A DNA stretch of 64,000 nt from Schmidtea polychroa. Lineage: Eukaryota. Where the stretch lies: contig CM097885.1 in the NCBI GenBank assembly GCA_044892525.1, positions 10,046,001 to 10,110,000 of the forward strand, written 5' to 3'. Positions 9,867 to 45,227 of this stretch are shown piece after piece. The notes under the pieces were generated by a model. The model was not told the origin of the DNA. It saw only the letters and a list, made by a program, of their open reading frames with translations, and did no database searches. A program made the translations under genes and the position numbers. Position 1 is the first letter of the stretch. Each line of letters opens with the position of its first letter.

Positions 9867-10975
9867 TAATTCTTAATAATAAAGAAAAAGTCAATTTTTA
9901 TATCAATTGTGTCCACTCTCAATAATAATTGTCGTAAAAATAACAAAATTAAAAAATTAAAATCTTAAATAATATTACAATATAAAAAGTCTAAAATATT
10001 ATTTACACAACTAAAAATTGATAAACATTACACAAAATCAACAATTAAAATTATGTAATAATTTTTTTTTCAATCAGTCTTGAATTATAATAGCAACTTC
10101 ATCCAATATGACCATAGCCATAAACATTTTTTATCTACTGAATCTATCTACTGAATTTTTATCTACCCAATAGCTTTTGTTATTATTATTTCTCAGTGCT
10201 TAATTAATATTTTAAACAATTAATAATTGATGATTTTATCTTGATGTTTAACCTGGCAAACAGCCATTTTATATTACATTCCACAATTTTTTTTTGGAAT
10301 TTTTCGACATGGAAATTTTACAATTTGACAACAACTTTAAATTGTAATTGAAGATTTATCATTTTTATCTAAATTTCATTAACATTGACTTGTCATTATC
10401 AAATGATGCATAATTTGTACAACTCCACCAAGTATTTCTTTTACAACTGTTACACTTCGTGGAATTTTCTAAGCTTTGGTTAAAAACATTTAATTAATTA
10501 ATTACAATTTTTATTTAATATTTACGATAACCAACTCTCGGTTCTATGTAGTTGCAAACAGTCAATGTTAAAATGCCAATTTTTATAAATATTATTTTAC
10601 TCATATTTTTATTAATATTATTTGGTTTTACAGCCGTCTCAGAGTGGTTACTAATTTTAGGATTTATGTAAAATCTCGAGGAAAATAATCCTCTATGTAA
10701 AAATAATTAATTAAAACTCTGTCTTGGGCGAGTATTTCTGATCGTATAGAAGAGGGATGAGTTACGAAAACAATTTTTTAAAAGGTTATGTTTTTTTAAT
10801 CCAACTTCTGAATTTGTCATTTATTTAAATGTTCATTGTCTCTATTTAATCACTGATTGTCAAAAGTTTCAATTTCCAAGTTCTGACTGGTCATTCATTG
10901 AAACCTTAGAAAAAAAATGTGCAAATCCAAAGTAAAGTATTCTCATTTCCTACGCAATTGCAGCCATCGCAATGT

Positions 10976-11250
10976 CACGGATTGTGAGGATTGACAGATT
11001 AATAGCTCTTTCTTGATTCGGTTGGGTGGTGGTGCATGACCGTTCTTAGTTGGTGTAGCGATTTGTCTGGTTAATTCCGTTAACGAACGAGACCCTAACC
11101 TGCTAAATAGTATATTTGTGTTATAACTCAAATGCTGACTTCTAAGAGGAATAAATAGCGTTTACCTAAATGAAATTGAGCAATAACAGGCCTGTAATTC
11201 CTTTAGTTGTCCGGGCCGCACGCGCTCTACAATGCCAGTAACAGCGAATT
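10976..11250 (+). pseudogene. 18S rRNA gene fragment (3' half), part 1
   Basis: Contains GGATTGACAGATTAATAGCTCTTTCTTGATTC, GGTGGTGCATG, GTTAATTCCGTTAACGAACGAGACC, GCAATAACAGG and GGGCCGCACGCG; substitutions in normally invariant positions; no flanking rDNA. Confidence 0.92.
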
Positions 11251-11474
11251 TAAAAAAAAACAAATTTTATTTAAATAAATTCGTACGCGCCACATGGCCG
11301 AAGGGGAGAACTTCTCACCCTTAATAATTCTGCAGCTTTTAATTTCTTTAAACTTCTATTGCTGGAGTTAAAAACTCCCGCAATTGTACGTGATTAACAT
11401 CCATCTGATTATTTGTTTGGAATGATTTGAGATTGAGCTGATTGTTTGATTGATGATCGGTATTGGATGTGAGC

Positions 11475-11714: not shown

Positions 11715-11846
11715 AGGTGACTGTCGTTTCAGGAATAGTGACTTAAATTTATTCCACTTGAACGAGGAATTCCTTGTAAACGTAAGTCATTAGCTTGCGC
11801 TGATCACGTCCATGCCCTTTGTACACACCGCCCATCGTTACTACCA
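11715..11846 (+). pseudogene. 18S rRNA gene fragment, part 2
   Basis: TGAACGAGGAATTCC...GCCCTTTGTACACACCGCCC, collinear with part 1 and ending abruptly. Confidence 0.92.
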
Positions 11847-12326
11847 TGGCTACCTTTCCCACATTTTTAGTCGAGCAAAAAGACGAAATTTGAATTTGAT
11901 GTTTTTTTTTGTTATTGAATTATAATATATTTTTGTTTAATTTTGCAACAAACTGAACTTCACTTGCTTTTAAAAGTTTTAAATTTGCTAGAAAGATTTC
12001 TTATTGGAAATGATTTTAACAAAAATTTTCGAAGAATATATTAATTAATTTTTAGATTTTTCTGAAACAATAAGAGTTTGAAAAATCTTCAGAAAATCTT
12101 GATATGAATTGTTAACAATGAGCTTAATTTATATATTTATATATATTTATATATTTATATATTTGGAAACATGAAAATATCAACATTTTATAAAGTTTGA
12201 AATTTTCTAGACAAAATGAAAAATTTCCAAGTTTTTTTAAAAGCAAACTTTAAAAGAATATTTCCTATTAAAATATTTTCAATTATTAAAACTTAAATTA
12301 TTCAGAAAAAGTTTTGTTTTATTATT

Positions 12327-13010: not shown

Positions 13011-14040
<1,030 letters not shown>

Positions 14041-14043
14041 TTT

Positions 14044-14061
14044 TTGTGAGCCCGACGTGAT
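14044..14061 (+). promoter_or_regulatory. Primer-binding site, tRNA-Trp
   Basis: TTGTGAGCCCGACGTGAT matches 16/18 to TGGTGACCCCGACGTGAT, the complement of the metazoan tRNA-Trp 3' end; 3 nt after the LTR. Confidence 0.8.
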
Positions 14062-14175
14062 ATAATTTACGGGGGGAATAAGAATTTTATTTATAAACGA
14101 CAAATATCTTTTTAAATCATTGAGTTAAGAAATAGAGTCATAAATTTTCGACCAGGTAATAGAAACCAACAGATA

Positions 14176-16317
14176 ATGGCAGAACTAAATAATTTGCAAA
14201 ATCTAAATGAGAATAATTTACAAAATAATGTGCCAGTAGCTCAACCACCAGCGGTAGATTTTATGAGATACCCAACAATTCCGATTAAACCATTTAGTGG
14301 AAACCCAGGGGAGTTTCCAGAATTTATGTCCGAATATTTTCAGTTAGCCAGAGCATTAGGACTTCCGGAACCGGTAATGATTTTGAGATTACCTTTATAT
14401 TTAAAAGGGATGGCGCGGGAAATATATAACGATTTTATAATAGCCGAGCATCCAGTTGAATGGAATGTATTACGATTAGCGTTACAAAACAGAATATTAC
14501 CGGGGGATGCAACTAGAGTGTTGAGACAACAGTTTTATAACAGGCGACAAAATTCGGGTGAGCATGTTGGGGAATTTTCATATCAAATAATGATGTTGGC
14601 AGAGAGAGCATTTGGCAATAGGGCAGCCTGGAATGATGCAAATGGAGCATTAGTAAAAGATCAGTTTTGGTCAGGGTTATCGTCAGCAATGAGAAATGCA
14701 CTCAGTTTACACATAGGAGATAATTTAGAGGAATTAACGCGCAAAGCGTGTTTAATTGAAAGTAGCATTGAGAAGTCAAATAATTTTGCAATTAGTAGCA
14801 ATAAGTCAGACATTGAGTGTTTTAATTGTCATAAAAAGGGACACATGTCAAAAGATTGTAAAAGTAGGAATAATTCTCCAGGGGACAAATTGTGTACCAA
14901 GTGTGGGAGAAATAATCATGTGGCATCAAACTGTAGAATTTCGGACCTAAATTGTGAGAAATGCAAGCGCAAGGGACATGTAGCGTCAGTTTGTAAAGCT
15001 AGTTTTGGGGGGAATAATTCAAATAATAGCAATAATAGAAATAGAAGCCCCGATAGGAATTTTCGTGGTAATAATAATAATAATAATTTTCAGAGTAGAA
15101 ATAATAATTTTAATAATAATATTAAAAGGGATGAAGTAAATTCGGGGGGTAAAATTAAATGTCATAAGTGTGGAAAATTTGGTCATATTATGCGTTCATG
15201 TCCACAGAATCAGTTATCTAATAACAATGATAGTGGCAACAATGGTAATAATCGATCGAAGCAGACAACGTTTGCAGTGAATTCAGACCACAAATTAACG
15301 TATTTGCAGCAGCTTGAATTAGAAATTCAAGAAGAGAGAAACAGGTTAGCAAGGCTAACAACAAATGAAACTGATGAGTACGATGAAAGTGAAGGTGTTT
15401 ATATGACGTCAGCCAGAAAAAGTCGAAATAAAAATAATTATGTAGAACTTGAAGTGTTGATGCTTCAAGAGAGTCCAAGGGAGGACAAAGAGGAAAAGAC
15501 TATGGTCATGGAACCAGAGGTCTGTGAAGGTTTACAGGTTTCAACCAGGAAAAATCTAGTGGCTGTGGCCATGGAGCCAGAAGCCAACAGAGAAATAGAA
15601 GGTTTACTGGTTTTACCAGTTAAAAATCGTAATGCTATGGACATGGATCCAGTAGCTAATGAAATAGTTCCAACAGAAGATTTGGAAAAAAGATGGGCTT
15701 CGGTCATTGAGCCGGAAGTTCTTATAGCCACATCATCCATGCGAGGTGAGTGTGGTAGTGAACCAACAAAGGTTAGAGAAGCATCGAAAGAGGAAAGAAA
15801 TCCCATCGATGATTGTAGAAAAGTATTATTACGCAAGAGCGTATGGCAAAGAGAAATGAGACAGAAATTAGAAAATATTCGTTTAAACCCCGTTAATGAG
15901 AATGAGGTTGACAAAGTAATGGATATCATATTAGAGTTAGACAGAAATGAGAAATATTATCCAGAATTGAGAGAAATTCTGAGAAATATTGGCCTAAATT
16001 GGAAACAAAGAGAGAATCTGGAAGATTCTACAATTTTTGTATCTTTCCCAAAGGGTTGTTTTCGTAGATATACAATTAACCCAAGTGAAAGGGTAGAAGC
16101 ATTGGCAAAGAGAGTTTCTGTGGTAAAACCTCAATTGAGATGCAAACTATATTTATTGGGAGAAAGGTTATTAGAGGGAGAAACCCTGTTAGATAGTGGT
16201 ATACTACCAGGGAAAAATATGGTGATAAAAGCAAAGTTTCACAAGGAAACTGTTACAGTAGTGGACTTGGATAATGTCCTTACAATAAGCGAGATTGAAA
16301 TTGATCAATTAAATTAA
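14176..16317 (+). CDS. gag: Gag (capsid, four CCHC knuckles) with C-terminal ubiquitin-like domain; first part of the polyprotein
   Basis: IKPFSG, YLKGMA and RRQNSGEHVGEF capsid motifs; CFNCHKKGHMSKDC, CTKCGRNNHVASNC, CEKCKRKGHVASVC, CHKCGKFGHIMRSC; TIFVSFPKG...LYLLGERLLEGETLLDSGI aligns with ubiquitin. Confidence 0.92.
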   Translation: MAELNNLQNLNENNLQNNVPVAQPPAVDFMRYPTIPIKPFSGNPGEFPEFMSEYFQLARALGLPEPVMILRLPLYLKGMAREIYNDFIIAEHPVEWNVLRLALQNRILPGDATRVLRQQFYNRRQNSGEHVGEFSYQIMMLAERAFGNRAAWNDANGALVKDQFWSGLSSAMRNALSLHIGDNLEELTRKACLIESSIEKSNNFAISSNKSDIECFNCHKKGHMSKDCKSRNNSPGDKLCTKCGRNNHVASNCRISDLNCEKCKRKGHVASVCKASFGGNNSNNSNNRNRSPDRNFRGNNNNNNFQSRNNNFNNNIKRDEVNSGGKIKCHKCGKFGHIMRSCPQNQLSNNNDSGNNGNNRSKQTTFAVNSDHKLTYLQQLELEIQEERNRLARLTTNETDEYDESEGVYMTSARKSRNKNNYVELEVLMLQESPREDKEEKTMVMEPEVCEGLQVSTRKNLVAVAMEPEANREIEGLLVLPVKNRNAMDMDPVANEIVPTEDLEKRWASVIEPEVLIATSSMRGECGSEPTKVREASKEERNPIDDCRKVLLRKSVWQREMRQKLENIRLNPVNENEVDKVMDIILELDRNEKYYPELREILRNIGLNWKQRENLEDSTIFVSFPKGCFRRYTINPSERVEALAKRVSVVKPQLRCKLYLLGERLLEGETLLDSGILPGKNMVIKAKFHKETVTVVDLDNVLTISEIEIDQLN

Positions 16318-16902
16318 ATATCAGCCGTACCACATAGATTGGGAATCGAGCTGATGAAAAACCCAAGAGATGGGGAGGCCATTAAGATGATAATGGATTG
16401 GATACTGGAGTTGCGAATCCCAGTAGATACTCTTAGAGAGATAATGCCATTGGTGGTGCCTTTAGTAAAAGAGACATCACAATTTCAGACACAAGCGAAG
16501 ATGCTGTTGATTAAAAATGGACATGCTATCAGACAATCGGAAGGTAGACAAGGTCCAGTGATGTTAGATATCAGGATACCCAGGAGAGGACACCTGATAC
16601 AACAATTCTCATGTTATCATAGAGTAAAGAAACTGAGAAAAAGGATATCAGAAATAGTAAAAGAATCATTCCTAATAATGATACATGGTTGTCAGGTGGA
16701 TGACGACGAATTTCTAGTAGATGTGGGATGTTTTCCCCAAGAGGAAACAATAGTAATGATATTGTTTATAGAGTTTCCAAAGGATCAGTGGGCAACTTTG
16801 AGATTGCCGGATAATGCAGAAATTGAGGAGGAGACAGTTCCTCTCGAGCAGAAACAAGTAGATGATGATACTCATCTAGAGCCAGCAAAGACAAATAGAT
16901 AA
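16318..16902 (+). pseudogene. Polyprotein continuation with second, weaker ubiquitin-like domain
   Basis: Same frame as gag after one TAA; RVKKLRKRISE...LIMIHGCQVDDDEFLVDVGC has beta-grasp spacing. Confidence 0.55.
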
Positions 16903-16940
16903 ATAGATATTTAAAGGAACTCGACAACACAGAGGATGAG

Positions 16941-17720
16941 TTGATCGAGATATTTCCACCAGAAGAAGATAAACTCATACAACTAAACCAGAATGAGACA
17001 AACATTGGAGCAAGAACCTCGCAATTATTGGAGCCACCAAGGGATAGGGTGAGCCCGAAGTTGGTCGAAAATAGGAGAAAGAAGGAGAGGAGAGGGAGAC
17101 CGAGAAAGAGTCAAATGAACCCGCCTCTAAGAGAACTCCTAAGGCCAGTAACTATGCAAAATGTTACTAGACAGGCATTAGCAGGAATAGCTAGCCAAAT
17201 AGATAAAAGCGTGGGAGACGCCAGTAGTAAAACAGAAACATGGAGGAAATTAAATCAGATATTACGATTGATTAAGCCTGAATGGCAAATCAAGAAAGAT
17301 AAAGATATAAACGTTGAGAAAATCACTGAAAAGATAAAGAAAACAATGGGAAAGATCCCAGGAAATACCACGGAACAAGAAATGTTCGAAGTGGCAGAAC
17401 AATTCCTAAATGAAGGAATGACGAAAGGGAAAATGATAACGATTTTAGCCTTAATGTTTAAAAATGCCTTAATGATACTTAAGGATGATCAGTCAGGAAT
17501 TCAAGCAGCCTTAGATAGGTTGACTAATATTATAGAAGTGAATTTCGGAACATGGATGACCGAACACAAGTTTTGGGAGATAAAAGAGACAAAAGGAAAA
17601 TACGAGTTAAATGAGGAAATACTAACGGAAAACATTTCGAGTATTCCACGGGGAACAGGTGGATTTACCAGTTGGATGATGATGTTGTTAGTAATGATGG
17701 GAATATTGAGACAGACAAAT
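16941..17720 (+). CDS. Bcl-2-like domain plus hydrophobic signal/anchor segment
   Basis: FEVAEQFLNEGMTKGKMITILAL (BH1-like), FGTWMTEHKFWE (BH2-like), then WMMMLLVMMGIL. Confidence 0.65.
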
Positions 17721-19783
17721 TCTTTAACGGCATATGATTGTAGTGAACCAATACTATCACGAATATACTCATTAGTAGACACAGTGGAATGCAAGGAAGC
17801 ATATCCCGACAAAGTGGCTAAAATGGAAGATGTAGAATTTTACGTTTATCAACAAACAGAATTTTACCGAACAAGGATAAGGGAATGTCGAATACAGAGA
17901 GCGACATTTGAATACTATTGTGGATCAAATAGTTATTCAGCATTTTTAGGAGCCAAACTTATTCCTGTACCTCTGATAATCCCACCAGAGGATTGTATAA
18001 ATGCTTTTCGATCAAAGACGGTCAAAATAGATGATGAAGTGACAATTACTTCTGAAGAGGGAAAGAAATTGGGTATAACTATTACCCGGGGAGGACCAAT
18101 AGCAGATGATGGTTCTTGTCAGGGTAGAAAGAAACTACGAGGTTCTAATGTAGTAAGGTATGTGGTAACAGTTGAGGATTACACAGTAGAGCTGATTGAG
18201 TACGAAGGAACTTTTGAAGTTTCTACGGGAAAAATGATGTCGCATCCAGAATGTAATGCGAAGTTTGGTTATTGTAAAACCAGTTTAGCAGTATTGACTT
18301 ATCAATCAATGAGAGATTTTTGTGATTTGGGATACTTGAAAAAGGTAGTCTTTTCAAGGCTTGATGGGAAAAGTTTTACGTCTCAAGACACGAAACAGAG
18401 TGGTTGGGGAGACAAGATGGCTCACAAAACGAAAAAAGAGGAAGTACCAGAGAAAATCACTGCGGTAGTGTTAGTCTCAAAGGATCCAACAGATGCAATA
18501 CGATTAGTCAGAAAGAAACAGACCACAAAGTGTGGAGTATTAACATTTGAAAAAATTATAAAGGAATATATTTAGCACACAAATATGTTCCAGCAGCTGA
18601 ATCGTTACATTTATCAGATATCAAGATAACCAAGTATATCAATAACAAGATTGACTTTCTGTATCATGACTTACAGAAGCAACTGTTAGATGTATACCAG
18701 GAAGTGATCCTGAATGATTGTCGTTTGAACAGAGAAATAATACGTAACAGGTTAGCAATATCGATAGCTAATCCAGATTTAGTAATGCCAATGTTAACAG
18801 AGGAAGGAACATTTGGTAGAATATTGGGAGAAGCAATCTACAGTTATCAATGTAAAGCAGTAGAGGTAGAAGTCACCAGATATGATCAATGTACTGTAGA
18901 GCTTCCGGTAAGATATAAAGGCAAACTGAGATTTATGATGCCGGTATCGCATCAGTTATTAAAGGAGGATACATCACCGTTAAAAACAGTTTGCAATCCA
19001 GCAATGTCACCATTGTACAAGATTAACAATATATGGATTTCATTACCAGATAGAAAACCACCTTCGAAACCAGTAGAAGTACTCCAAGCTACAAAACTGG
19101 AAACTAAAATGGAGTTTAGACCATTGAATGAAATGTCAAAAGGTGGAGTATACACTCCAGAGGAGATTGAAGAAGCTCGGAGAGCAATTGTATTTCCCCA
19201 AATCAGAGATAGAGGAGTAACAGAGATAATAACTAGAATCTATCAGTCATATGATGGTAAACCAGATTACAATTTATTATTTGGGCCTGAACACTACAAA
19301 CAAGCTGCATCAAATGTGATACGGAAAATCTGGGGTAGATTTACAAGTTTTGGAATATTTGTAGCAGGATGTTCAGGGATATACGCAATAATAATGATAC
19401 TGAAAATAATCATATCACAATTATTTTCCACGTATAGTATCTTCAAGATCGGAGGGTGGTCTTGGAAGTTGCTATTAGGAATGTGTCCAGTTTGTGCAGA
19501 CTTTGCAGTATTTCATCATCATAATAAAGAAATTAAACGAATGAAGAGGCAAAATCTAACAAAACATCAATTGATAAAGTATGAATATAGTCATCGAGAC
19601 GATGACAATTCTGACGAGGGAGGTAACCTAGAGGGCTACGAGACCTCAGATAACACATCAACAAATCCAGACAACAAAAAACCGAAATTTAAAAATTTTG
19701 AAAATAGAACTTATCAACAGCACCCTGTTAAAGATAAAAATCGGAAAGGACTAAAATGGCCGGTGAAATATTTATCACCTTAA
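17721..19783 (+). pseudogene. env: Envelope glycoprotein, chuvirus G-like (class III/gB-like), frameshifted at ~18550
   Basis: LTAYDC after the signal peptide, YYCG, conserved cysteines, YINNKIDFLY, CRLNRE, GEAIYSYQC, CTVELPV and a C-terminal TM; adding one base in the A-run at ~18550 joins ORFs 16941 and 18704. Confidence 0.85.
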
Positions 19784-20578
19784 ACAACCAGGAAAAAGAT
19801 AATATCGGAACAAGTAGAGGAGGAAATGATAAAGCGGCTTGATTTTAGAACAAGTATAGATATAGCAACACCCTTGCCATATCCGAAATATAATATGAAA
19901 TTTGAAACAATGCCAGCAATTGGCACATCAGCCATAGAAATGATACCAAGATACCCATTTAGTACGCTGGAGCGTCTAAAGGAAAATTATCAAGAAGAGA
20001 TAAAATCGGAAGATGATAAAGACAGCGAGAATCAACAGAAATTTAGAGATAATATCCGAGGAATTTCAACAATATTTATGGTGAATATTGGGAAAAAGAC
20101 TAATAAGCCTACAATTAAATTAAAGGTAAACAGGCATACAGTACATGCCAACATGGACTCAGGATCAGATTTAACACTGATCGAAGCGAATCTATTAAAT
20201 GAAAAAGAACTACAAGCAATAGTACCAACATTAACGGGAGCAACTGGAGCAAACGGACAGCCGATCAATGTTATCGGAACATTAGAGTGTGAATTACGGC
20301 TGTGCGACCAGAAATTTAGACACGATATCAAAGTCACAAGAAAATGTATGGCTGAATGTATCGTGGGAATGGATATATTGAAAAAATTAAAAGATATTGT
20401 CTTCGATTGTGCAACAGGTGAATTAGTAAAAATGACGGGTAGAAAACTAAAAACCTACAGTGTGGATGTAGTGTTTCTAGATAGAACGCTAACCATACCA
20501 CCGAGGACCGAGACAGTTTGTTTTGTAGCCACACACCAAGAGGTGGAGGGGGATGTTATTTTCGAACCTAGTGAGTAG
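19784..20578 (+). CDS. Retropepsin aspartic protease region
   Basis: ANMDSGSDLTLI, GANG flap, CIVGMDIL; in frame with env across one TAA. Confidence 0.92.
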   Translation, partial: TTRKKIISEQVEEEMIKRLDFRTSIDIATPLPYPKYNMKFETMPAIGTSAIEMIPRYPFSTLERLKENYQEEIKSEDDKDSENQQKFRDNIRGISTIFMVNIGKKTNKPTIKLKVNRHTVHANMDSGSDLTLIEANLLNEKELQAIVPTLTGATGANGQPINVIGTLECELRLCDQKFRHDIKVTRKCMAECIVGMDILKKLKDIVFDCATGELVKMTGRKLKTYSVDVVFLDRTLTIPPRTETVCFVATHQEVEGDVIFEPSE

Positions 20579-20581
20579 TTC

Positions 20582-23101
20582 GTGAATAGATATAAAACGC
20601 CCATGGTGCAAAACTTGGCAACAGTACGGGGAGGAAGAATTCCCATTCGATTAACAAATCTAGCGAACAAGTCTTTGAAACTGTACCCAGAAACGAGAGT
20701 GGGTAAAATAATGCAACTTGCAAATGTACCCAAAGAAAGTGAGACGATACTATCAGTGCAAGAGGATGAACGAGATCCAGATATTGAATATTATGACGCA
20801 CCGAGCTGCGATAGTAAAGCATTAACTAGAAAAGAGAACATCAGAGTTAATCAGTTGTTACGTAAATATGACCAAGTTTTTGCAAAACACGAATATGATT
20901 TAGGGCAAGTTAATATCTTAGAGCATGAAATTAAATTAACAGAAAATAAACCGATAAAAATACGCCCGTATAGAATACCTCAAAGTATACAAGGGTCCGT
21001 GGATAAACAAATTAAATTAATGCAAAAATATAATATAATCAGACCCAGTAAATCTCCATATTCCTCACCTTTGGTGGTTGTAGCTAAAAGAGATGGCTCA
21101 GTTAGATTATGTAATGACTATAGGAAATTAAATGAACAGACAGTAAGTGACAATCACCCGCTACCTTTGCTAGATTACATTTATGATAAAATGAAAAATT
21201 CAAAGTTGTTTACTGTGATGGATGCACAGAAAGGTTTTTATCAAATAAAGATGAGCGAAGACTCAATTCCTATGACAGGATTTTCTACAAGTAGTGATCA
21301 TTTCGAATACTTAGTAATGCCGTTTGGATTAAAAGGAGCCCCTCCAACTTTTCAGAGGGCAATGAATATCATGTTGATGGATGCACATCACGCAATGGTA
21401 TATATAGACGATATTATCATCTTCTCGGAAGATTTAGATAAACATTTGGAACATCTTGAAGACATTTTCAAACGATTAATCATGGCAAACTTAAAAGTTA
21501 AACCAAGCAAATGTAAATGGGCAGAATCGGAAGTGATTTACGTGGGGCATGTAATATCACACGATTGCGTAAGACCAGATCCGGCTAACACGGATAAAGT
21601 AAAGAATTTCCCACAACCAGTGAATGTGAAACAAATCAAAGGATTTTTAGGGTTGACGGGATACTATCGGAAATTTATACGAAATTTTTCAGCAATTGCT
21701 TTTCCTCTAACTACCTTAGAAAAGAAAGGTATAACATTTTTATGGGGAGAAGACCAGCAACAGGCATTTGATAAGTTAAAAGATGCACTATGCAAACCAC
21801 CAATTCTACGATTTCCAGATTTTAAAAGACAATTCATGGTGATGACCGATGCATGCACAAGAGGAATAGGTGCAGTTTTGGGACAGAAAGACGAAATTGG
21901 CGATGAATACGCAGTAGCATATGCAAGTCGTGGATTGAAGCCACACGAAAAAAGTTATGCTGTAATAGAATTGGAAGCATTAGCATTAGTATTTGCAGTG
22001 GAAAATTTTAGTCATTACCTATGGGGCAGAAAGGTAATTTTCTTTACGGATCATAGACCACTACAATGGTTATTGAAACACAGAGATGAAGCGTCAAAAT
22101 TAGTAAGATGGGCATTGAGATTGCAGCCCTATAATATTGAAATAGTATACCGAAAAGGTAAAGCCAATGGTAACGCTGAATTGTTTGATCCAGAAGCTAG
22201 TCAACACCCGGATATAGAATACCGGAGAACGGATAGATCATTCAGATTTTATTTGACAAATCCGCAATGGCACAGATATGATTTATATCTGACAACTCCA
22301 GAAAGAGGAGTATCTTTCCATCTAAATCTATGGGATCGAGTGAAGATAATAGATGGATTATTACCAAATACCAGTTATCTCCTAGAAATTAAAACATATA
22401 TGGCAGATCCAAACGTGTTCGCAAATGGAGGAGATTGTGATGACAAAGCAGCATGGATCGTGAGAACAGCGGTATTTAAGGAAAAAGTGGAAATTACGTA
22501 TCAGAACCAGACAGTTAAATTCCATCATTTATATTGGAGGAAAAGTAACACATTTTCTGAACATGATTGGAGAATAAATAATCGAATAGCGCTCCTATAC
22601 ATATTAGAAAATAATAAAACAGTAAAGAAGTTAGTACTCAACCAAGCTTATCAACGGAGGAGCTGGACAGTTAAACAAAATATCGAAACGATAGCCAATA
22701 TAACGTATATGGAATTCACAGAGGAAACAGGCTGGTATACGGTGTATCATGAGATGATAAAATTAACACCTCCAGCAATAAAGGAACTAGCTAACCGACG
22801 ATGGGAGGCTAGATTAGTAAATATCTCGGGTTGTAGAGGAATAAATAAAATGGATTGGACGAATTTTCAAAGGGTAGCGAGTGAAAAACGTTCACGTGAA
22901 AATAAAATAATTAAAAATTGTTCATGTCAGACTGAACTTAAGGGAAATTCAGGAGCTAAAATGCCAAATTGGCTAATCATAACTATTGTAGGGGGAGTAA
23001 TAATTATGATATTGAGTTTAATAATAGCTACCTTGTGGGTGTTTAAAATAATAATGAGGGACATAAGGTATTGGGAAAATATTTACGAGACCGAGGTTTA
23101 G
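20582..23101 (+). CDS. pol: Reverse transcriptase and RNase H fused to an FN3-like ectodomain, TM and cytoplasmic tail; no integrase
   Basis: RPYRIP, RLCNDYRKLN, MPFGLKGAP, YIDDII; RNase H TDAC, ELEALA, TDHRPL. After KGKANGNA the sequence switches to IDGLLPNTSYLLEI, TM WLIITIVGGVIIMILSLIIATLWVF and tail ENIYETEV. Confidence 0.93.
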   Translation: MNRYKTPMVQNLATVRGGRIPIRLTNLANKSLKLYPETRVGKIMQLANVPKESETILSVQEDERDPDIEYYDAPSCDSKALTRKENIRVNQLLRKYDQVFAKHEYDLGQVNILEHEIKLTENKPIKIRPYRIPQSIQGSVDKQIKLMQKYNIIRPSKSPYSSPLVVVAKRDGSVRLCNDYRKLNEQTVSDNHPLPLLDYIYDKMKNSKLFTVMDAQKGFYQIKMSEDSIPMTGFSTSSDHFEYLVMPFGLKGAPPTFQRAMNIMLMDAHHAMVYIDDIIIFSEDLDKHLEHLEDIFKRLIMANLKVKPSKCKWAESEVIYVGHVISHDCVRPDPANTDKVKNFPQPVNVKQIKGFLGLTGYYRKFIRNFSAIAFPLTTLEKKGITFLWGEDQQQAFDKLKDALCKPPILRFPDFKRQFMVMTDACTRGIGAVLGQKDEIGDEYAVAYASRGLKPHEKSYAVIELEALALVFAVENFSHYLWGRKVIFFTDHRPLQWLLKHRDEASKLVRWALRLQPYNIEIVYRKGKANGNAELFDPEASQHPDIEYRRTDRSFRFYLTNPQWHRYDLYLTTPERGVSFHLNLWDRVKIIDGLLPNTSYLLEIKTYMADPNVFANGGDCDDKAAWIVRTAVFKEKVEITYQNQTVKFHHLYWRKSNTFSEHDWRINNRIALLYILENNKTVKKLVLNQAYQRRSWTVKQNIETIANITYMEFTEETGWYTVYHEMIKLTPPAIKELANRRWEARLVNISGCRGINKMDWTNFQRVASEKRSRENKIIKNCSCQTELKGNSGAKMPNWLIITIVGGVIIMILSLIIATLWVFKIIMRDIRYWENIYETEV

Positions 23102-23302
23102 GGGGAAAAAGTCTCACCAACAAACTAGGCAATGTAAATATATAGTTATCTATTTAATAAACCTTATTTATAGTAATGTATTAAAAGTGTGGGCTCAACT
23201 GAGCAAAGGTAAAATCAGACATCAGCGTATGTCGACCTTGTGCACCCTGGGAGGGTCTATCACGAAAGTGATAAAAGCTATTAATTAATTTTATTTTCAG
23301 CA

Positions 23303-25378
23303 ATGGATCAGAACAGAATGACAAAAGCCCCAATCAAAGCAAACAGACGACTTCAAATGGCAAAATACAATTCCCAATGTCCAACAGATATGGAGGTATA
23401 CAGTACCTTCAAGGAGGAATACGTATACCGGTTCATAGGAACCACGGTAGAAACGAAGATGAATCATTTCACTTCGAATTACTGGTATTATCCCAGGAGA
23501 GTGGATATCCCAAACGATTATAAATTCCCAGGTGGACCTCACCGACAAATGATGATAACGGTTGTAAGCAACCAAGGGAGAATAAAGTTAGGAGATTTAT
23601 GCAGAGAATATGGATCATGTCCAAGGAGAGAGAACATTTGAATCCACGCTATAAATAGGCCAATCACGGTGTTCATGGCAGGTATGGACCTACCCGTGGA
23701 ATTGGATAAATATAGTACGTTGGAAATGTACCATTCAGATGGACGAGAAAAGAACATTCAAGTTCAAGCAGCAGCAATAAATTCAATAATAGCGGTGGAA
23801 ATATCGGAGTTTAAAAAACAACACCCTATTGTGAGTCGAAATGAGCCGACATGGATTAATAATGTCAACGAAGCCGACATACAACAGTGCAAGTCGTTCG
23901 TAAGAAAATACTTAACAAAAATCGAGGAGGATGAGGCCACAGTTTTTGTATCCGCAGGATTTGCAAAATCCAGGATGGAGTTGAAAGAAACACTAATCCA
24001 AATTGCGATAGTGGATATGAGAGGCAATAATTTATTGAGTGCGGTAGTGACTCCCAAGGACCCAGTTAAACACTACCAGACGCACCAATATAAACTGAAG
24101 GAACCAGAAATCAGAGGAAATTTGGATGAAGACGATTGTCACCACCTTATTAGGAAAATTTGTGATAAGAAAATTATAGTTGGAATTTTAATAAAAGATT
24201 TAGTTTCGGTAGCCAATCTACCAGTGCAACGATTGTTAGGAATCAGAGACTTATCAGCAAATAAGTTGTTAGAATCCAGAGGAGTCCCCAAGATTCATGG
24301 GCATTATAAATTGGGATTCCTAACAAAGACGTTTTTGCGTGCGGTTCCCGGAGAACCAAGGAATTTAGTTGTAACAAACGAGGCACTTGCGATCCGAGCG
24401 GTTTACCTACAAATCCGAAATGAATGGGTAGACCATATCAGTATGCCTCAGGAGGATTACATGTCAGCAACCCAGGCGGTAGCGGTTGACTTAGAAATAT
24501 TGCAGAAACGAAGACTACCCGAACAACCTTCTACATCAGAACAGCCCCAGGCAAAGAAAAGGGGTAGGTCACCAGCAGATTTACCACCACCTCCAACAGT
24601 GTCGATAGGAGAAGAAGAGTATGAAACATGCGTAAGTGAAGCTGAATTAACAAGTCCACTCAAATTATCTACTAGTGTCGCAAAGAAATCACAGAAAAGG
24701 TCAGAAGTTAAAAGTGCAAAGGAAACCCCAGAGGTAGGCACAGTCAAAAAGATATTAAAAAAAATGATACCTGGCAAACGCGATAAATCGAAATTGAAAT
24801 TGAAAAAGGTTGCCAAACAACCAGGGGAGAAGATAGAAATACCATCCAGCAAGGATGAAGTAAACAAAGCAGAGCCCAGGAAATTATTTACGGAACCCGA
24901 TGATGACTTAATGGAAATTGAATTCCAACCTCCAATCAAGGAATTGCAAGAGAAAATTAAAATCAAATCAGAACCCGAAGTACGAAAGAAAATGTTAAAG
25001 CTAACAAAAGAAAATGTCATAAAAAAGCCAGTATCAGTAGACGTAGATGGATTTGATCCTATGTGGTATAAACGTCCTGACAGGAATTGGAAGCCTAGAG
25101 CCAAAGAATATAATGGCCAACCTATCACGAGGATGGCGATAAATAACAATCAACAATATGATGAGTATGACGTAGATGCGATACCTTATGTGATATCTAC
25201 AGTCATACTAACATGCGCCCTGGATGATAAAGCCCTGGCCGTGAGTTTCGAGCCAGAGGTATTGAAGAAACAGAAAGCGAAAATGATTCGCCAATATGCA
25301 ATCGCAAATAGTTACAGTACCACGGAGGTACATCTATACAAAGTTCCCGAACCAGATCCCGACGATCTGGATGTCTGA
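23303..25378 (+). pseudogene. 3' accessory ORF: REX4/ISG20-like DEDDh exonuclease fold with degenerate catalytic residues, plus charged tail; one in-frame TGA at 23639
   Basis: LIQIAIVDMRG...VVTPKDPVKHYQT...KKIIVG...IRDLS...NEALAIRAVY follows the REX4 pattern; ORFs 23303 and 23669 share a frame; splice acceptor TTTTATTTTCAG just before the ATG. Confidence 0.65.
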
Positions 25379-25602
25379 CGAAGGAAATTGCCAGAAGTCG
25401 TTCAATTGAGTGTAAATATGAGCTTATCTATATGTGTTTCATGTGACATTTCTTGGACATTACTTGGTGATTCTGTCATTTATTATTTTGGGAATATGTG
25501 TTTATATTTTGTTTTATGATTTATGGTAATTTTTATGTAATACTGTTGTCTGCAGTTCTTGAAAAATAATTTTATATCTTGTTTTCGGGACGAAAATCTT
25601 TT

Positions 25603-25614
25603 AGGGGGTAAGAC
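25603..25614 (+). promoter_or_regulatory. Polypurine tract
   Basis: AGGGGGTAAGAC immediately before the 3' LTR. Confidence 0.75.
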
Positions 25615-25615
25615 T

Positions 25616-26531
25616 TGTTAGGGATAGGCCCTGGCCTTAAATTATTTTTCTAAAAATAGAAGTAGGAGAAGTGAAAATAATTGTATAGCACAAAGTACTG
25701 TAGTGGGAAAATTTGTTTTTTTGGAAACAGCTGTCGTGGAATCGGGGATTTGATCGAGACCTGACTAAGCTTTGGAGGTAGTTTTGTGTAGAAAAATAAA
25801 GAGAAATAACTACACAGCTGTAGTTGAAGAAGAGATTAGAATTTTATTAAGGAGAGCAGCTGTTATAATTACAGGAAAAGATTTTATTGTGGAGGTAAAT
25901 TTAATCGTTTTTTTTCATTTGGGAAGAATTACTTGAATACAGCTGTGCTCAAAAAACATATATATAGAAAGAATAGTGAAAGAAAGGAGCAGAAGAAATT
26001 AGACAGATTTGAAAAATCTAGAGAAGAATTATTTATGAACAGAAACGAGAATATTTAAAAGTAAAATTTAATTTAATTTAATTTAATTAAATATAAGGGT
26101 GGTTGAGGATAAATTCGTATCCTGTGAACTAGTAAAATTTAGCGAACACAAAGTATAGATCTTCTACTTTAGTGTTCCCTGGGAGCCCCAAAATCATTCC
26201 CTCTTGCTTGCCCAACTCTTTTAGTCATATTGCGATTGTTGTGCTACATAGGAGCCAATAATTTCTTGCAGACTGTTGACAACAGTAGGGATCAAAGAAT
26301 CCGTTTTCTTGTACTCTTTGTACATATATTATAAAGTTCATTTGTAAATTATAAAATACATTTTTATAAAAAGAGAAAGGAGTTTTGTTTTTTCTTATTC
26401 AGTGATTTAAACTTAAACGCGCAACCACATTAAATATAACTTATTTATATTTATTTTTATTTATTTATCTTAATTGAATTATTGGAGTCATTTGTGTTAA
26501 GATCTGTAGTCCCCGTTTTTCGATCTTAACA
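25616..26531 (+). repeat. 3' LTR (916 bp)
   Basis: Direct repeat of 13124-14040. Confidence 0.98.
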
Positions 26532-28496: not shown

Positions 28497-30365
28497 TTAA
28501 ATGACTCAATTTCACAATAAATTTATAAATAGAATTTTACAATAAAATTGAATAAATTGTATTTCACATTTACATATAGAAATGACAAGGCTAAAATTGA
28601 CCATTGACTTTTAAATGAAATAATATATTTCAATATATTTCAACGACTCAACTGTCATCATCAGGCACTAAACAAATTCAATAAAAATGACTAAACTGAG
28701 AAATTCATTTGTAAATTAATTAATCACTCCAAAAATTCATAATGAATTTTGTATGTTTATTTTACAAGTAATAAATAATTTTTTGAGATAAAACTTTAAA
28801 ATCTTTCAATTTGTATATCTTCTTATGCTCAATAATGTTACTGTTTTCAACCAATCGGGCAAGACCTCAATATTGTGTGCAGAGATGACGAGCTGTTTCT
28901 CCAATGTATGTGGCATTACACTTATTACAAGACAAACATCATACGATAATTATTGATAAACATTTTAAGACTATAATAATAACTTTAAAACAATTTTAAC
29001 ATTAACAATTACAATACCAAATAAATTTTCTAAATTTGTTTGAAACAATTAAAGGAACTGCGTGACACTGGTAAGGTTGTGAACAGCTAAAAGGCGCCGA
29101 TTATATGAGATCAAATACAACATATTAAATTTAAAAGTTAAATTAATTTTTTTAATTTTCCGGTCTAAAATATCTATAATTCCTCAGATTTTACGATACG
29201 TATGGCATTTACTTCATATTTATATTCTTATTCTAAATACACCAGAAAAGAATTATATTAACTTATTATATATTTTATTTTATATTGTATTTTTCTACTT
29301 ATTATAAGTTAGTCACCTTATTTTAATAATTTTTGACGGGGCGCAAAAATATAAGGTTTACATTGGCGCCTCTTACCCACATGGAAGCACTGAAAATATT
29401 TTATGCATAACGAAAGATTTGTACAAAAAAACTTACATTCTATTAATTTTATTATCGTTCCGTTTAATAAGCAATCAAAACAATTTTGAAAGGGTTTGCA
29501 AAATCTAGCACATTTCCTGCCATAGTGATTTTTTGCACATTTTACACTGAACTTCAGTTCGACATAGACATTCCTAATAAAATTCTAGTCAATTTATACA
29601 CAAATATTGAAGGGTTTAAATATTTAAGTATGATTATTTAGAAGTCCCATAGCAAAGAATATTAATATTCAACGAGATTGATGAAGGATTTCTTTGGCTA
29701 AACTTGTTTCTATTGAAGTTATCCAATGGCTTATACTAGTAATTATCCCTTAGGATGAAGGACCTCATGAAATCAGTTAGGATCAAAGAACTTAATGAAT
29801 AATGCATATAAATAATAATGTGAATAATCCATGTTTTCAGTTCTGGTAACATTGTATTTATTAAATATCGCTTCAATGTTGACTGTTAAAATATCAAGTT
29901 AATATATGGCTAACTTTTCTTGTGGTCCAATATAGATCCTCACTACCCCTCCCTCTTAGTTAAGTTTCTGTGATAAATTTATTAATGGAAAATATGGTAA
30001 TAATAAATTGCAATAATAAACTTACTTTTCATCTCTCATGAAATAATTATCCGAAATGTTGACATAAAATACATTTTTCATATTGTCTTTGAAAATGAAA
30101 TAATCTGTAAGATTGTAGTCAAATTTTATTATTTTTGTCTCCTCTATAATCGCATCACTGCCACTCGTTTTGTTATGGCTATAAGTGATATTTTTATTTC
30201 TTAATTATCAAATTATATTAATTGCTAAATATATACAAAGTAATAAATCATCTTACTTTTGGGGAAATATAATTTGAAATTGATATAACTCGAAATTTTC
30301 AGTATAACATTTTAACTTGATCTCAATTTCTGAGTTTTCTAACTAGATTATTAACGATTAATACG

Positions 30366-34545: not shown

Positions 34546-35367
34546 AGTAGAGAGAAGTGTGCTCCATGACTCATCGTTTTTTGTCATTTTTTTGCACTAC
34601 CCCCCCCCGATGACTCAGCGCAAAACAAAGACATATGACTCATCGATGACTCATCCATAGCAACAGCGGTAACTGGGTCAAGGTCATTCTATTTTTAGTA
34701 ACTAGGTCAAGGTCATTCTATTTTTAGTAACTAGGTCAAGGTCATTCTATTTTTAGTAACAATGTCACGTGACGTCATCGATGACTCATCAAGGTCATTC
34801 TATTTTTAGTAACTAGGTCAAGGTCATTCTATTTTTAGTAACTAGGTCAAGGTCATTCTATTTTTAGTAACAAGGTCATATGACTCATCATTTTTGGAAC
34901 AAAGCCAACTGACTCATTATTAAAGTATGTATGACTCATCATTTTTTAAACAAAGACATATTTAATATTTAAATAAATACATTTAAACAAATATTTAAAT
35001 AAATACATTTAAACAAATATTTAAATAAATACATTTAAACAAAAATTTAAATAAATACATTTAAACAAATATTTAAATAAATACATTTAAACAAATATTT
35101 AAACAAAGACATTTAATCAAATATTTAAGTACATTTAAACAAAGACATATAGACAAAGACTCATCGATGACTCATAGTTTAGATAGGGGGTTTCTTTTTT
35201 TTTGCATACCCCCCCCTTGTATGACTCATCGATGACTTTTTTGAACAAAGACCAATCATTTATTTTTAAAAGAAAGACTCATCACACGACTCTAATTTTT
35301 AGAAGACTTCTTTTTTGGTAAACCAAAATTTATTGTATGTCGCTACAGAATAATAATAATAATAACA

Positions 35368-35412
<45 letters not shown>

Positions 35413-35598
35413 TTAATAATAATAATAATAAAAACATACCCATTTCTTCATAAAAAAGTTTGTTTTCATAAAATTTATTTCATAAATCATATAATTTGTT
35501 TTCATAAAAACTGGTTTCATAAAAAAAAAAAATAAAAATTAATCATAAAAAAATTTCATTATAAAAAAATTTAAATCATAAAAAAATAATAATTACCT
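34546..35598 (+). repeat. Polinton left TIR with internal 29-bp and 26-bp tandem repeats
   Basis: Reverse complement of 47973-49016; 29-bp unit AGGTCATTCTATTTTTAGTAACTAGGTCA and 26-bp unit ATTTAAACAAATATTTAAATAAATAC. Confidence 0.96.
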
Positions 35599-37795
35599 AA
35601 AGACGAATTTACAAACTGACAAGAATCTATAAATTTCACAGTCAGGGAATCAATATGCACAAAAAGAGATAAAAAATTTTCACTTGTCACCGGTATACAA
35701 GAAATATGCCAGGACTTATATTTAGCCAAGCCAAATTTGAGGATATGATGGAGATCATATCCTCTCAAATTATGAAAGACTACAGGTAGTGTGTGGTATA
35801 TTTTCCTGGAAAGATTACAAGTGTTGCAAGCAGCACCAAGGAATTGACCGGTAAAGTGATCATGATCCCTGACTGGTTTAACTAATAATTTTTTACACAA
35901 ATGACAGTTTGTGCTGTTATTAAAATTAATTTGGTCATTTTCTGTGAATATCATTTTCTTATTTTTATTTTTATAATAATAGGGAGTTACAATCTTTTTA
36001 GCGATATCATTAATTTCTTTTAAAAATTCGTCTATACAAGAAAGGCCTATGAATGATTTATAAAATTTTGCGCCTGTATTATTATTTATACATAAAAGTC
36101 CAGCCGAAATGGGTAAATGTTTCTGATAATATTTAGAATCTTTAGGAAGGATTGCCTCAAAATCGGCATAAATAACAAAAGGAGGAGTAATCATTTTACT
36201 ATAGTCTGTGAATTCTAATAATGGATCTTTTGGTAGTGTGTACATTGTGGTTCCTAATTGGTTTCGTTCACAAAGACCTTGATGTTTAATAAAACTATCT
36301 TCAAATCTGAATCCATTCAGACATCTAGGACACCACTTACAGTAAATACGAACAGAACTTATTGATGAATTTCGGCAATTAAGAAAGATGTTTAAATCAG
36401 ATATAGCGACGTAATGGTAGGTTTTCCGATTCTGTAATAATAACAAATTTAGACAAGTACCTCCTACTATTTTACTGCGATAAATTATATCTATAAAAGG
36501 ATGTTTCATGATGGGACCCGAAATTAACCCAGTTTCGTCATAACTTAAAACATTAATTGAATAACCTGGGTTTTGTCGTTCAAATTTTGAGATATTTGAT
36601 AATTTCATTGGCATATCTGCCGGGTTATATATCAGATCTGAAAGGTTATAAGAACTAGGCAGATGACGCAATTCATCAGGAGTACTATCATATTTTATAA
36701 GAGCCAAAACCGAGTAAAGGAAACAAAATTCGTCATCATTATTTACATTTATTATACATTTTTTCCTGATTAATGTTTTCGGGGTTTCAATATATTTACG
36801 ACCACTCAACCTACTAATCTTTGAATATTTTGTCACAATAAAACTAATGTATTCTATTTTGTTGATGGTCCAATTACTTCCCTTTTCATTTATTTTACTA
36901 ATTTTTTCATTTAAAAGAGAGATACCATCATCAATAAATGTGTCGCTCCATACACGAGCAGAGTTTGAGATTATGAAAGACTGAAATTCATCATTTTTCT
37001 CAAACTCTACTTTAATACAAAATTGAATTTTTACTGATTTCATTTTATTTACAATTTCTAACAATTTTTCTATGAGAACGTCAGGAACAGAAAGAATTTT
37101 ACAATTCAAGGAAGATATATCCAACTTAACTATTACATGGGAACTATTCAGGTCGGAAACTACGTCGACTATACCACTACCTACTTGGGGTACAACATCA
37201 CTATTTTCAAATTCACTATTTTCAAATTCACTATTTTCAAATTCACTATTTATAACTTCACTATTTATAACTTCACTATTTACAACTTCACTATTTACAA
37301 CTTCATTACTTACAACATCATCGTCGTCTTCACTAATGACTATTATTTCTTTCATCTTTTTTGTGGGAATTTCTGTGGGAATTTCTAAATGTCTTTTATT
37401 ACCTATTATTCCTATTAATCTATTGACTGTTTCCATTAATTGTCGATTTTGTATCAACATGGCATTAATCATACTTTTGTTGGTGGTCCTATTATTGATT
37501 TTTGTTGATGTTTCCATTAATTGTCGATTTTGTAAGTTTTCGGTGTTCCTATTATTAGTTGATGATATATATTTTTGATACGCAATTTTGAAAACTGATT
37601 TTTTAGAAGGCATATATTGGGTTAAATGATTACGATGTTTATCATAAAATTCGGTATATGTCGATGTTTCAAGAGTTTGGCATGTAGGACATAACAAGTA
37701 TGTTACACTTTTATATTCATGACCATAATATTTTTCCATAATATCGTCACAGTCATGATGTGTAGCACTGTTACAAAAGGTTGGATATTTATAAC
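35599..37795 (-). pseudogene. Protein-primed family B DNA polymerase, N-terminal and exonuclease part only; extra short upstream exons likely from ATG ~38413
   Basis: GSNW, CFLYSV, YADFE (Exo I), endonuclease VII-like CHLC...DHDHFTG...CNTCN insert, FHNLRGYD (Exo II), KFIDS; ends at AG|GTAATT at the TIR edge with no SLYP, NSxYG or YxDTDS motif. Confidence 0.92.
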
Positions 37796-38647
37796 CTATA
37801 AAATAAGTAAAATAGTATTATTATCAAAATTATTATTATTATTATTATCAAAATTATTATTATTTATTATTACTATATAATCTGAGTTTATACGACAAAA
37901 TATTCTGTCCCTCCCTTGCTCATAAGTGTATTATATTTAAATTTATTTTAATTAAATAAAAACATATTCATTTTCTTTATAAAAAATAATTTCATTATTT
38001 GTTTCATAACAAAATTGACTTCATACATTTTCTTTATAACAAAATTGACTTCATATTAATTTAAAAAATCATAATAATTTAAAGTAAATTAATTTAAAAA
38101 TCATAATAATTTAAAGCATATTAATTTTAAAATTTTAAAAAACCTACATTTAGGTTTCTTGCACGCGAGATTGTGTACAGCATTATTTACTAAAAAATCA
38201 TAATAATAATAATAATTTAAAAATTAAATTTACCATAATTTCCGGAAACATTATTTTCAATTCCATTACTTGCTGAAAAATTATAAGTTCCCGAAACATT
38301 ATTTTCATTAATGTAGACTAAAATATAAATAAAAATAAAAACATATTAAAAAAAAAATTACCCATACGATTTCTTCGAATCATTTCCTTGATTTCATTTG
38401 AAATATTTTGCATTTTGAATAAATGAAAAAGAATTACAAAAACATAGATTATATATGTAACGTTTATCCAATCAAAATGCAGATAGGATAGAAAAAATTA
38501 ACGCACACATATTCATGTCTTTGTTTAAAAAAGAATGAGTCATCGATGACTCACATAGTAACAAATAATGTCTTTGTTACTCACATAAAGACATGCAATA
38601 CAAGTGCATGAAATTTGTTGATATGAATAATAAAATTAATTAATAAT

Positions 38648-38743
<96 letters not shown>

Positions 38744-38765
38744 CTTGTGACATTTAATACATTTA

Positions 38766-39150: not shown

Positions 39151-39180
39151 AAAAAACTTTAATCTTTTAAATTTCTTCAT

Positions 39181-42445: not shown

Positions 42446-42540
<95 letters not shown>

Positions 42541-42928: not shown

Positions 42929-42983
42929 TACAACAGGAAGATTTAAAATTCAAATTAAGATTTGGTAATGATTGACCCATTGT

Positions 42984-43475: not shown

Positions 43476-43498
43476 GATTGATAATTTATTTTTTCGTT

Positions 43499-44122: not shown

Positions 44123-44230
44123 TTTTTATTTTTAATTTTAAAATATCTAGTTATTGTTTATATTAGATGATTTTAATGAACTCTTGCTAAAGTTGTATAT
44201 AAAGAGTAAAATTTCATAAATGATTTAATT

Positions 44231-45183: not shown

Positions 45184-45227
<44 letters not shown>

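What the first reader, a model, noticed from the sequence alone, without database searches (positions are those of the whole stretch)
17670..19520. Chuvirus-type class III fusion glycoprotein captured by a Ty3/Gypsy element
Seen: signal peptide-AYDC start, YYCG, YINNKIDF, CRLNRE, GEAIYSYQC, CTVELPV and a TM. Known: this motif series marks chuvirus G (gB-like fold), and such captures are best known from BEL/Pao elements. Inference: an independent capture by a Gypsy lineage, possibly an infectious endogenous retrovirus.
Basis: partly seen in the sequence, partly recalled or inferred. Interest (0 to 1): 0.8.

Follow-up and report, generated by a model that had tools for sequence, protein, structure and literature searches.

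The report
Broken copy of planarian enveloped retrotransposon
This is a broken copy of a retrovirus-like jumping gene, likely from a planarian flatworm, that carries a gene for a predicted herpes/chuvirus-type membrane-fusion protein between its capsid and enzyme genes; the layout is real but already published for this kind of element.

Summary
Observation confirmed. All six motifs lie at 17730-18910, split over two frames by a break at about 18551-18575. Both halves match Pfam Monjiviricetes_fusion (E 7e-20, 1e-57). The predicted fold of the N-half matches class III fusogens: herpes gB leads among solved structures, chu-like G among viral models. The gene sits in a 13.4-kb LTR element (13124-26531, LTRs 99.2% alike) in the order gag, ubiquitin-like, Bcl-2-like, env, protease, RT-RNase H. 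The RT is Ty3/Gypsy-type. This is the published Burro / 'GAG-ENV-POL HSV/gB-type errantivirus' layout of planarians (PMC6431247; PMC13524379). By hand count the env is about 62% identical to the printed Smed_errantivirus_4 domains I-II. PMC13524379 already states that the chuvirus-like glycoprotein of mosquito BEL/Pao also sits next to Gypsy pol. 'Chuvirus' is too narrow as a donor: the env nests in an old clade of Gypsy-polyprotein envelopes, and xinmo- and qin-like G match almost as well. This copy cannot make an infectious particle on its own (env frameshift, three in-frame stops, no integrase); its family is multi-copy. Less-described extras: a second FN3-like membrane protein and a DEDD-like ORF. 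Low interest.

The parts
13124..14040 (+). 5' LTR, 917 bp, TG...CA, inserted in a (TAA)n microsatellite (target-site duplication not readable)
14041..14060 (+). putative primer-binding site (resemblance to the 3' end of tRNA-Trp is recalled, not tested)
   Evidence: sequence
14176..15201 (+). gag with four CCHC zinc knuckles (14818, 14893, 14953, 15160)
16030..16245 (+). likely ubiquitin-like domain 1 (weak: 4 of 5 PDB hits are ubiquitins, best E 0.21)
16318..16899 (+). second, diverged repeat of the same helical + ubiquitin-like unit, after an in-frame stop at 16315-16317; frame break near 16890-16900
   Evidence: 20% identity, E 0.006 pairwise; homologous to P0152, P0006
17310..17576 (+). 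likely Bcl-2-like domain (below Pfam cut-off)
   Evidence: PF00452 E 0.0017; top PDB hit BOK E 0.86; homolog P0007 PF00452 E 0.00096
17676..17729 (+). internal signal-peptide-like hydrophobic stretch in front of the envelope
17730..18575 (+). env N-half: class III domains I-II, predicted
18551..19783 (+). env C-half, TM at about 19355-19444 and tail; other frame (break at about 18551-18575); in-frame stop 19781-19783
20102..20392 (+). aspartic protease (DSGS at 20156); in-frame stop further on at 20576-20578
21083..22179 (+). reverse transcriptase (YIDD at 21401) and RNase H, Ty3/Gypsy type
22177..22179 (.). junction of an internal deletion in this copy; no integrase is left in the element
   Evidence: (family contigs leave or join the window here)
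22181..23101 (+). remnant of a second membrane protein: FN3-like by language-model features (lead only), 6 sequons, C-terminal TM at 22973-23029
23642..25378 (+). downstream ORF with a DEDD/RNase T-like N-terminal part; catalytic acids look degenerate by eye (motif recalled)
   Evidence: score 0.94, 28 of 30 hits in the RNase_T set; no Pfam or PDB sequence hit
25600..25615 (+). purine-rich tract before the 3' LTR
   Evidence: sequence
25616..26531 (+). 3' LTR, 916 bp; 6 substitutions and 1 gap against the 5' LTR

Best explanation
The stretch is the frameshifted env gene of a Ty3/Gypsy LTR element with the order gag-env-pol, predicted to fold as a class III (gB/chuvirus-type) fusion protein, and is likely a decayed copy of the published planarian Burro / HSV-gB-type errantivirus group. 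Shown: LTR pair, gene order, Gypsy-type RT-RNase H, env family and breaks. Inferred mechanism for intact relatives: one long polyprotein is made. The hydrophobic stretch after the Bcl-2-like domain would act as an internal signal, sending the env ectodomain into the ER lumen until the TM stops transfer and returns protease-RT-integrase to the cytosol. Signal peptidase and the element's protease would cut the parts free. Trimeric env would coat budding particles and fuse them with other cells, likely stem or germ cells, while the Bcl-2-like and ubiquitin-like cargo likely dampens death of the producer cell. The env was likely acquired long ago from the Monjiviricetes G family and then inherited with pol. 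This copy is a dead-end insertion that could move only if complemented in trans.
For: Pfam PF24664 on both halves. AlphaFold N-half pLDDT 87.5; its best PDB matches are herpes gB, E 2.5e-5; VIA top 10 rows are all class III fusogens (gB, Bourbon/Thogoto GP, rabies and Chandipura G; Z 7.6-4.6); best viral-model match is a chu-like G, E 2.4e-13, TMq 0.66. The intact natural homolog P0007 (38% identical) models to gB, E 9.8e-14. The family profile hits gB in 35 of 39 PDB sequences at E<=10, best E 0.0011. RT-RNase H: best PDB match Ty3 RT E 5.2e-86, then CaMV 4e-51, MLV 1e-30; Gypsy-type PF17917/PF17919 at E about 1e-34 and no BEL/Pao-type Pfam family listed. Closest relatives are single chains with G followed by protease, RT, RNase H and integrase: 4 of 17 proteins, 2 of 3. 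The env nests in their clade, 100/99. Hand count against the printed Smed_errantivirus_4 row (PMC13524379 supplement file 3): about 150 of 243 residues, 8 of 8 cysteines. Burro layout Ubl-BCL2-env-PR in PMC6431247.
Against: No experiment shows fusion or particles for any member; PMC13524379 says the entry mechanism is unknown. TM-scores to gB are low (0.24-0.36) and no VIA Z reaches 8. The second hairpin tip, which I take as fusion loop 2, is basic rather than hydrophobic, and the ectodomain lacks sequons. The host is inferred from likeness only. I built no RT tree with BEL/Pao or named Gypsy references. That the three stops are private to this copy was not shown (one search lists only 40 of 739 differences). 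At 13.4 kb the element is far shorter than Burro-1 and lacks its BIR, MATH and ankyrin hits.
Confidence: 0.9

Rival explanations
1. One reading: a recent, independent capture of a chuvirus G by this Gypsy lineage.
For: Named chuvirus G are among the 150 best hits (P0024, P0036, P0120); chu-like G lead the viral fold matches; the Gypsy clade falls on the same side of the tree as two of the three named chuvirus G, 97/97, and apart from the BEL-fused P0055.
Against: Only 21-29% identity to those G against 31-42% to Gypsy polyproteins; 12 Gypsy rows form one deep clade; qin-related and xinmovirus G match nearly as well, E 2e-12 to 2e-10; PMC13524379 argues for ancient acquisition and reports the same env type across phyla.
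Confidence: 0.12
2. The env is kept as an intracellular passenger (membrane anchor or scaffold for particle assembly) and the family spreads without cell-to-cell infection.
For: No sequons in the ectodomain; basic second hairpin tip; env is made in equal amounts with gag and pol if the single frame holds; no infectivity data in the papers read.
Against: Cysteines and the full class III fold are kept across relatives only 25-45% alike, with signal-like stretch and TM in place; other members do carry sequons.
Confidence: 0.2
3. The breaks are assembly errors and the locus is an intact element.
For: Contigs of 4 of 4 runs laid differ in length from the window at the env break (table 4).
Against: Those contigs are the family's majority form, 10-20 times deeper than the unique flank. 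The LTR divergence predicts about 38 substitutions and 6 indels inside since insertion, enough for the stops and frameshifts seen. The flank matches contigs without a difference over 2167 bases, so the assembly is accurate nearby. A missing integrase is not a base-call error.
Confidence: 0.05
4. A stand-alone chuvirus EVE that landed inside an unrelated Gypsy element.
For: Stand-alone G genes of about 650 aa are the bulk of the 150 hits.
Against: The nearest relatives carry G and pol in one chain; base composition and strand skew are uniform over the element; family contigs cover env as deeply as gag and pol.
Confidence: 0.01

Closest known systems
Smed_errantivirus_4 and the other GAG-ENV-POL HSV/gB-type errantiviruses of Schmidtea mediterranea (Chary and Hayashi, eLife 2026, PMC13524379; read: abstract, section 4 parts 1-4 of 5, section 9 part 1 of 2, section 14, search hits in supplements 2 and 3)
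   Same: Gypsy pol, gB-type env, gag-env-pol order, LTRs, multi-copy; env domains I-II about 62% identical by hand count with 8 of 8 cysteines.
   Different: A different family member (38% of residues differ); this copy is broken and has no integrase. In the parts I read, the paper does not describe Bcl-2, ubiquitin-like, FN3-like or DEDD-like cargo.
Burro / GYPSM1 giant gypsy-like elements of planarians (Arkhipova and Yushenova 2019, PMC6431247, section 7 read; Grohme 2018 and Jurka 2007 known only as cited there)
   Same: gag with several CCHC knuckles, ubiquitin-like and BCL2-like domains, then env with hits to mononegavirus fusion glycoproteins, in frame before protease.
   Different: 13.4 kb with 0.9-kb LTRs against over 30 kb; no MATH, BIR, ankyrin hit; dUTPase-like domain not detected (weak test).
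Anakin-type BEL/Pao elements with chuvirus-like G in mosquitoes (Dezordi 2020, PMC7642597; seen as search listing and as cited in PMC13524379)
   Same: Same Pfam family of fusion protein on an LTR retrotransposon.
   Different: BEL/Pao pol; the one BEL-fused G in my set (P0055, DUF5641 + G) is 27% identical over the C-half and lies elsewhere in the tree.
Chuviridae G (Wufeng shrew chuvirus 2, Tacheng tick virus 4, Wenzhou crab virus 2)
   Same: Pfam PF24664, cysteine pattern, predicted fold.
   Different: 21-29% identity; stand-alone gene of an RNA virus; here part of a retroelement polyprotein.
Rotifer LTR elements with DEDDy exonuclease ORF3 (Rodriguez 2017, PMC5408684; abstract read)
   Same: LTR element with a DEDD-like ORF after pol.
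   Different: Other host and lineage; their env is paramyxovirus-like; kinship of the exonucleases not tested.

Membership tests
Class III viral fusion protein (gB-like) | Domains I-II: long beta hairpins inserted in a PH-like domain | tested here: met
   Model pLDDT 87.5; top PDB and VIA matches all class III; Z under 8
Class III viral fusion protein (gB-like) | Long central helix, beta crown, C-terminal arm, TM | tested here: met
   Shown on homolog P0007 (helix 444-491; gB E 9.8e-14); the window's C-half was not folded, it is 39% identical to P0007
Class III viral fusion protein (gB-like) | Hydrophobic fusion loops | tested here: inconclusive
   First tip has Tyr/Phe, second tip is basic; loop assignment is my inference from the model
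Class III viral fusion protein (gB-like) | Trimer and membrane-fusion activity | not testable with these tools
   No trimer job run; no assay
Monjiviricetes fusion protein family (Pfam PF24664) | Score above curated cut-off | tested here: met
   71 and 195.5 bits against 27
Chuviridae G in the strict sense | Nests among chuvirus G to the exclusion of other Monjiviricetes G | tested here: inconclusive
   Only 3 named chuvirus rows of 41, not one clade; no named xinmo-, nyami- or qinvirus rows in the tree; fold scores near-tied
Ty3/Gypsy (Metaviridae) | LTRs with TG...CA; gag; protease-RT-RNase H order | tested here: met
Ty3/Gypsy (Metaviridae) | RT/RNase H closest to Ty3/Gypsy | tested here: met
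   Ty3 RT E 5e-86 best of 204 PDB sequences; PF17917/PF17919. No BEL RT was available to compare and no RT tree was built
Ty3/Gypsy (Metaviridae) | Integrase after RNase H | tested here: not met
   Absent from this copy; family contigs diverge at 22177-22179; relatives have it there. Read as a deletion; that the lost piece held the integrase is inferred
BEL/Pao (Belpaoviridae) | BEL-type Pfam domains such as DUF5641 or Peptidase_A17 (diagnostic value recalled) | tested here: not met
   None among hits at E<=0.1 for 9 frames; the region where DUF5641 would lie is deleted, so RNase H type carries the test
GAG-ENV-POL HSV/gB-type errantivirus (PMC13524379) | Gypsy pol plus gB-type env between gag and pol | tested here: met
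GAG-ENV-POL HSV/gB-type errantivirus (PMC13524379) | Intact ORFs with full RT and integrase (the paper's inclusion rule) | tested here: not met
   Two frameshifts and three stops in the gag-to-RNase H path, integrase missing: a defective copy of the kind
Burro / GYPSM1 | Ubiquitin-like and BCL2-like domains before an in-frame env | tested here: inconclusive
   Both seen in the right order but below thresholds; single frame shown in relatives, not in this copy
Burro / GYPSM1 | Giant size (over 30 kb) with MATH, BIR, ankyrin cargo | tested here: not met
   13.4 kb after a deletion of unknown size; no such Pfam hits. A compact relative, not Burro-1 itself

The most novel reading that the evidence does not exclude
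Intact members of this family are true infectious retroviruses of planarians with a two-protein surface: the class III fusogen in the middle of the polyprotein and an FN3-like, heavily glycosylated membrane protein at its far end that serves as the attachment partner (as gB needs partners in herpesviruses), plus a likely inactive DEDD-fold protein that binds or shields RNA. My two searches for this and the passages read found no description of the second membrane protein; five relatives also carry hydrophobic segments after integrase, though not alignable with this one.
Probability: 0.15. Interest if true: 0.6.

Novelty: new member of a known kind. Interest (0 to 1): 0.12.

Why it matters
As found, little: it adds one defective copy to a published group. 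The group matters because enveloped Gypsy elements in planarians could move between cells of an animal that is rebuilt from stem cells, and because nobody has shown how a gB-type envelope without herpes partner proteins enters cells. The second membrane protein is a candidate answer and seems less described.

Tried and rejected
No whole genome is held, so copies could not be counted directly. All 3 word-index protein searches were nearly blank: 0 hits for the C-half among longer proteins, 2 hits each for a chuvirus G and a 32-row profile; the exhaustive search (782 proteins at E<=0.001, best 150 listed) replaced them. Names were looked up for 30 of 150 hits; most have none; P0005 is filed under a bacterial MAG and is most likely mis-binned animal DNA. 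First tree (111 rows): I had labelled P0066 as Gypsy polyprotein and it fell among the stand-alone G, giving 2 changes; it is G plus an RNase H fragment. The careful tree used 41 of 111 rows and left P0066 out; 3 of its 12 'Gypsy' rows (P0007, P0008, P0017) show no pol domain and were labelled from upstream likeness. No RNA holder listed; run X7 is only guessed to be RNA, so nothing is concluded on expression. No PDB sequence hit for the DEDD-like part. The FN3-like tail does not align with the tails of 6 relatives. Rfam: 0 matches in the window. Grohme 2018 is not held. BEL/Pao origin, stray EVE and assembly artefact were considered and rejected as above. Figures of PMC13524379 were not seen and its supplements only as search hits; they may describe the cargo or this very family.

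Full report
Observation. The six motifs are present at 17730-18910 and a TM peak at 19355-19444. They lie in two frames, 16899-18575 and 18551-19783, so the gene is broken near 18551-18575. Each half passes the Pfam cut-off for PF24664 Monjiviricetes_fusion, E 6.9e-20 and 1.4e-57.

Surroundings. The gene lies in an LTR element at 13124-26531. Its LTRs (917 and 916 bp, TG...CA) differ by 6 substitutions and 1 gap and sit in a (TAA)n tract. Order on the + strand: gag with four CCHC knuckles; two copies of a unit ending in a likely ubiquitin-like domain (weak); a likely Bcl-2-like domain (Pfam E 0.0017, top PDB hit BOK); a hydrophobic stretch, env and TM; protease; RT and RNase H. In-frame stops stand at 16315, 19781 and 20576, and frame breaks near 16895 and 18560. 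After RNase H the frame runs straight into a membrane-protein remnant; integrases of three relatives find nothing in the element, and contigs from public runs leave or join the window exactly at 22177-22179, so this copy has an internal deletion. A last ORF has a DEDD/RNase T-like part.

Gypsy or BEL. The RT-RNase H matches Ty3 RT best (E 5.2e-86; 204 PDB sequences matched) and carries PF17917/PF17919; no BEL-type family was listed. It is 41-54% identical to the RT-RNase H of eight stored proteins, seven of them with G in the same chain. I had no BEL RT to compare and built no RT tree.

Fold. The N-half, folded with 90 sequences, reached pLDDT 87.5. Foldseek on PDB gave 53 matches at E<=0.001; the printed rows are herpes gB but for one baculovirus GP64, with low TM-scores of 0.24-0.36. 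VIA's top 10 of 48,161 chains are all class III fusogens, Z 7.6-4.6. Among viral models, chu-like G lead (E 2.4e-13), with qin-related and xinmovirus G close behind (E 2e-12 to 2e-10). The natural homolog P0007 models as a whole gB-like ectodomain (E 9.8e-14). Against a working fusogen: no sequon in the ectodomain, and a basic second hairpin tip.

Relatives. An exhaustive search with the C-half gave 782 proteins at E<=0.001. The best are long chains with G followed by protease, and where complete by RT, RNase H and integrase. In a 41-row IQ-TREE the window's env nests in a 12-row clade of such polyproteins (100/99). Three named chuvirus G are not one clade; two fall on the same side as the Gypsy clade (97/97), and the BEL-fused P0055 on the other. 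Identity to named chuvirus G is 21-29%, to the nearest Gypsy relatives 31-42%. So the env is of the chuvirus-like family and separate from the BEL-borne one sampled, but old, and a chuvirus donor is not shown.

State of the copy. Family contigs are about 10-20 times deeper than the unique flank (X1 859-1188 against 48-55; X5 422-483 against 41-46); the tool warns this is no copy number, so I read it only as multi-copy. At the env break, contigs of 4 of 4 runs differ in length from the window, so the break is likely private to this copy. LTR divergence predicts about 38 substitutions and 6 indels inside since insertion, which fits neutral decay.

What is known. PMC6431247 (section 7 read) describes planarian Burro elements with gag, ubiquitin-like, BCL2-like, then env in frame before protease, the env hitting mononegavirus fusion glycoproteins. 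[quoted passage not shown] The printed domain I-II row of Smed_errantivirus_4 aligns to the window's N-half without gaps; my hand count is about 150 of 243 identical, 8 of 8 cysteines. The planarian host is inferred from this and from the AT-rich, (TAA)n-rich sequence. Earlier AI notes on other windows of this genome reach the same reading; they are not independent support.

Mechanism. Shown: anatomy, family, predicted fold, breaks. Inferred: a single polyprotein threaded through the ER membrane, cut by signal peptidase and the element's protease; env trimers on budding particles fusing with other cells; anti-death cargo in the producer cell. Fusion is untested for the whole group. This copy lacks an intact env and an integrase and could move only with help in trans.

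Verdict. Real, correctly recognised as a class III env on a Gypsy element, but a defective new member of a published kind. Interest 0.12. The open thread is the FN3-like second membrane protein (lead only), which searches did not find described.

Noticed in passing
window 34650-48880: Polinton/Maverick-like element: long terminal inverted repeats, integrase pieces split by a (TAA)n tract, A32-like ATPase, and ORFs that look like major and minor capsid by eye (39181-41841; no Pfam hit).
   Followed up: partly
window 44210-44668 (+): A TBP (TATA-binding protein)-like ORF, Pfam PF00352 E 3.6e-16, lies inside the Polinton-like element's inverted repeats; viral-type TBP cargo may be worth a look.
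   Followed up: no
window 46646-47020 (-): Short ORF in the Polinton-like element with a BH1-like stretch by eye; possible second Bcl-2-like cargo, untested.
   Followed up: no
window 22181-23101 (+): FN3-like membrane protein remnant with 6 sequons and a C-terminal TM at the end of the polyprotein; relatives P0004, P0005, P0018, P0152, P0154 also have hydrophobic segments after integrase.
   Followed up: partly
window 23642-25378 (+): DEDD/RNase T-like ORF whose catalytic acids look replaced (by eye, motif recalled); family contigs are about 98% identical here, so the state is probably family-wide.
   Followed up: partly
window about 10940-11280 and 11720-11850: Two degenerate stretches that look like small-subunit rRNA by eye, flanking a short purine-rich repeat; no Rfam match at gathering score.
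   Followed up: partly
window 50587-51756 (-): Tc5/pogo-type DDE transposase ORF (PF03184 E 1e-22, PF03221).
   Followed up: no
window about 28880-28930: Very high-copy short repeat (depth up to about 20,000), probably a small mobile element.
   Followed up: no
P0005 (HBK71150.1): A G-protease-RT-integrase polyprotein filed as hypothetical protein of a Flavobacteriaceae MAG: likely mis-binned animal DNA.
   Followed up: no
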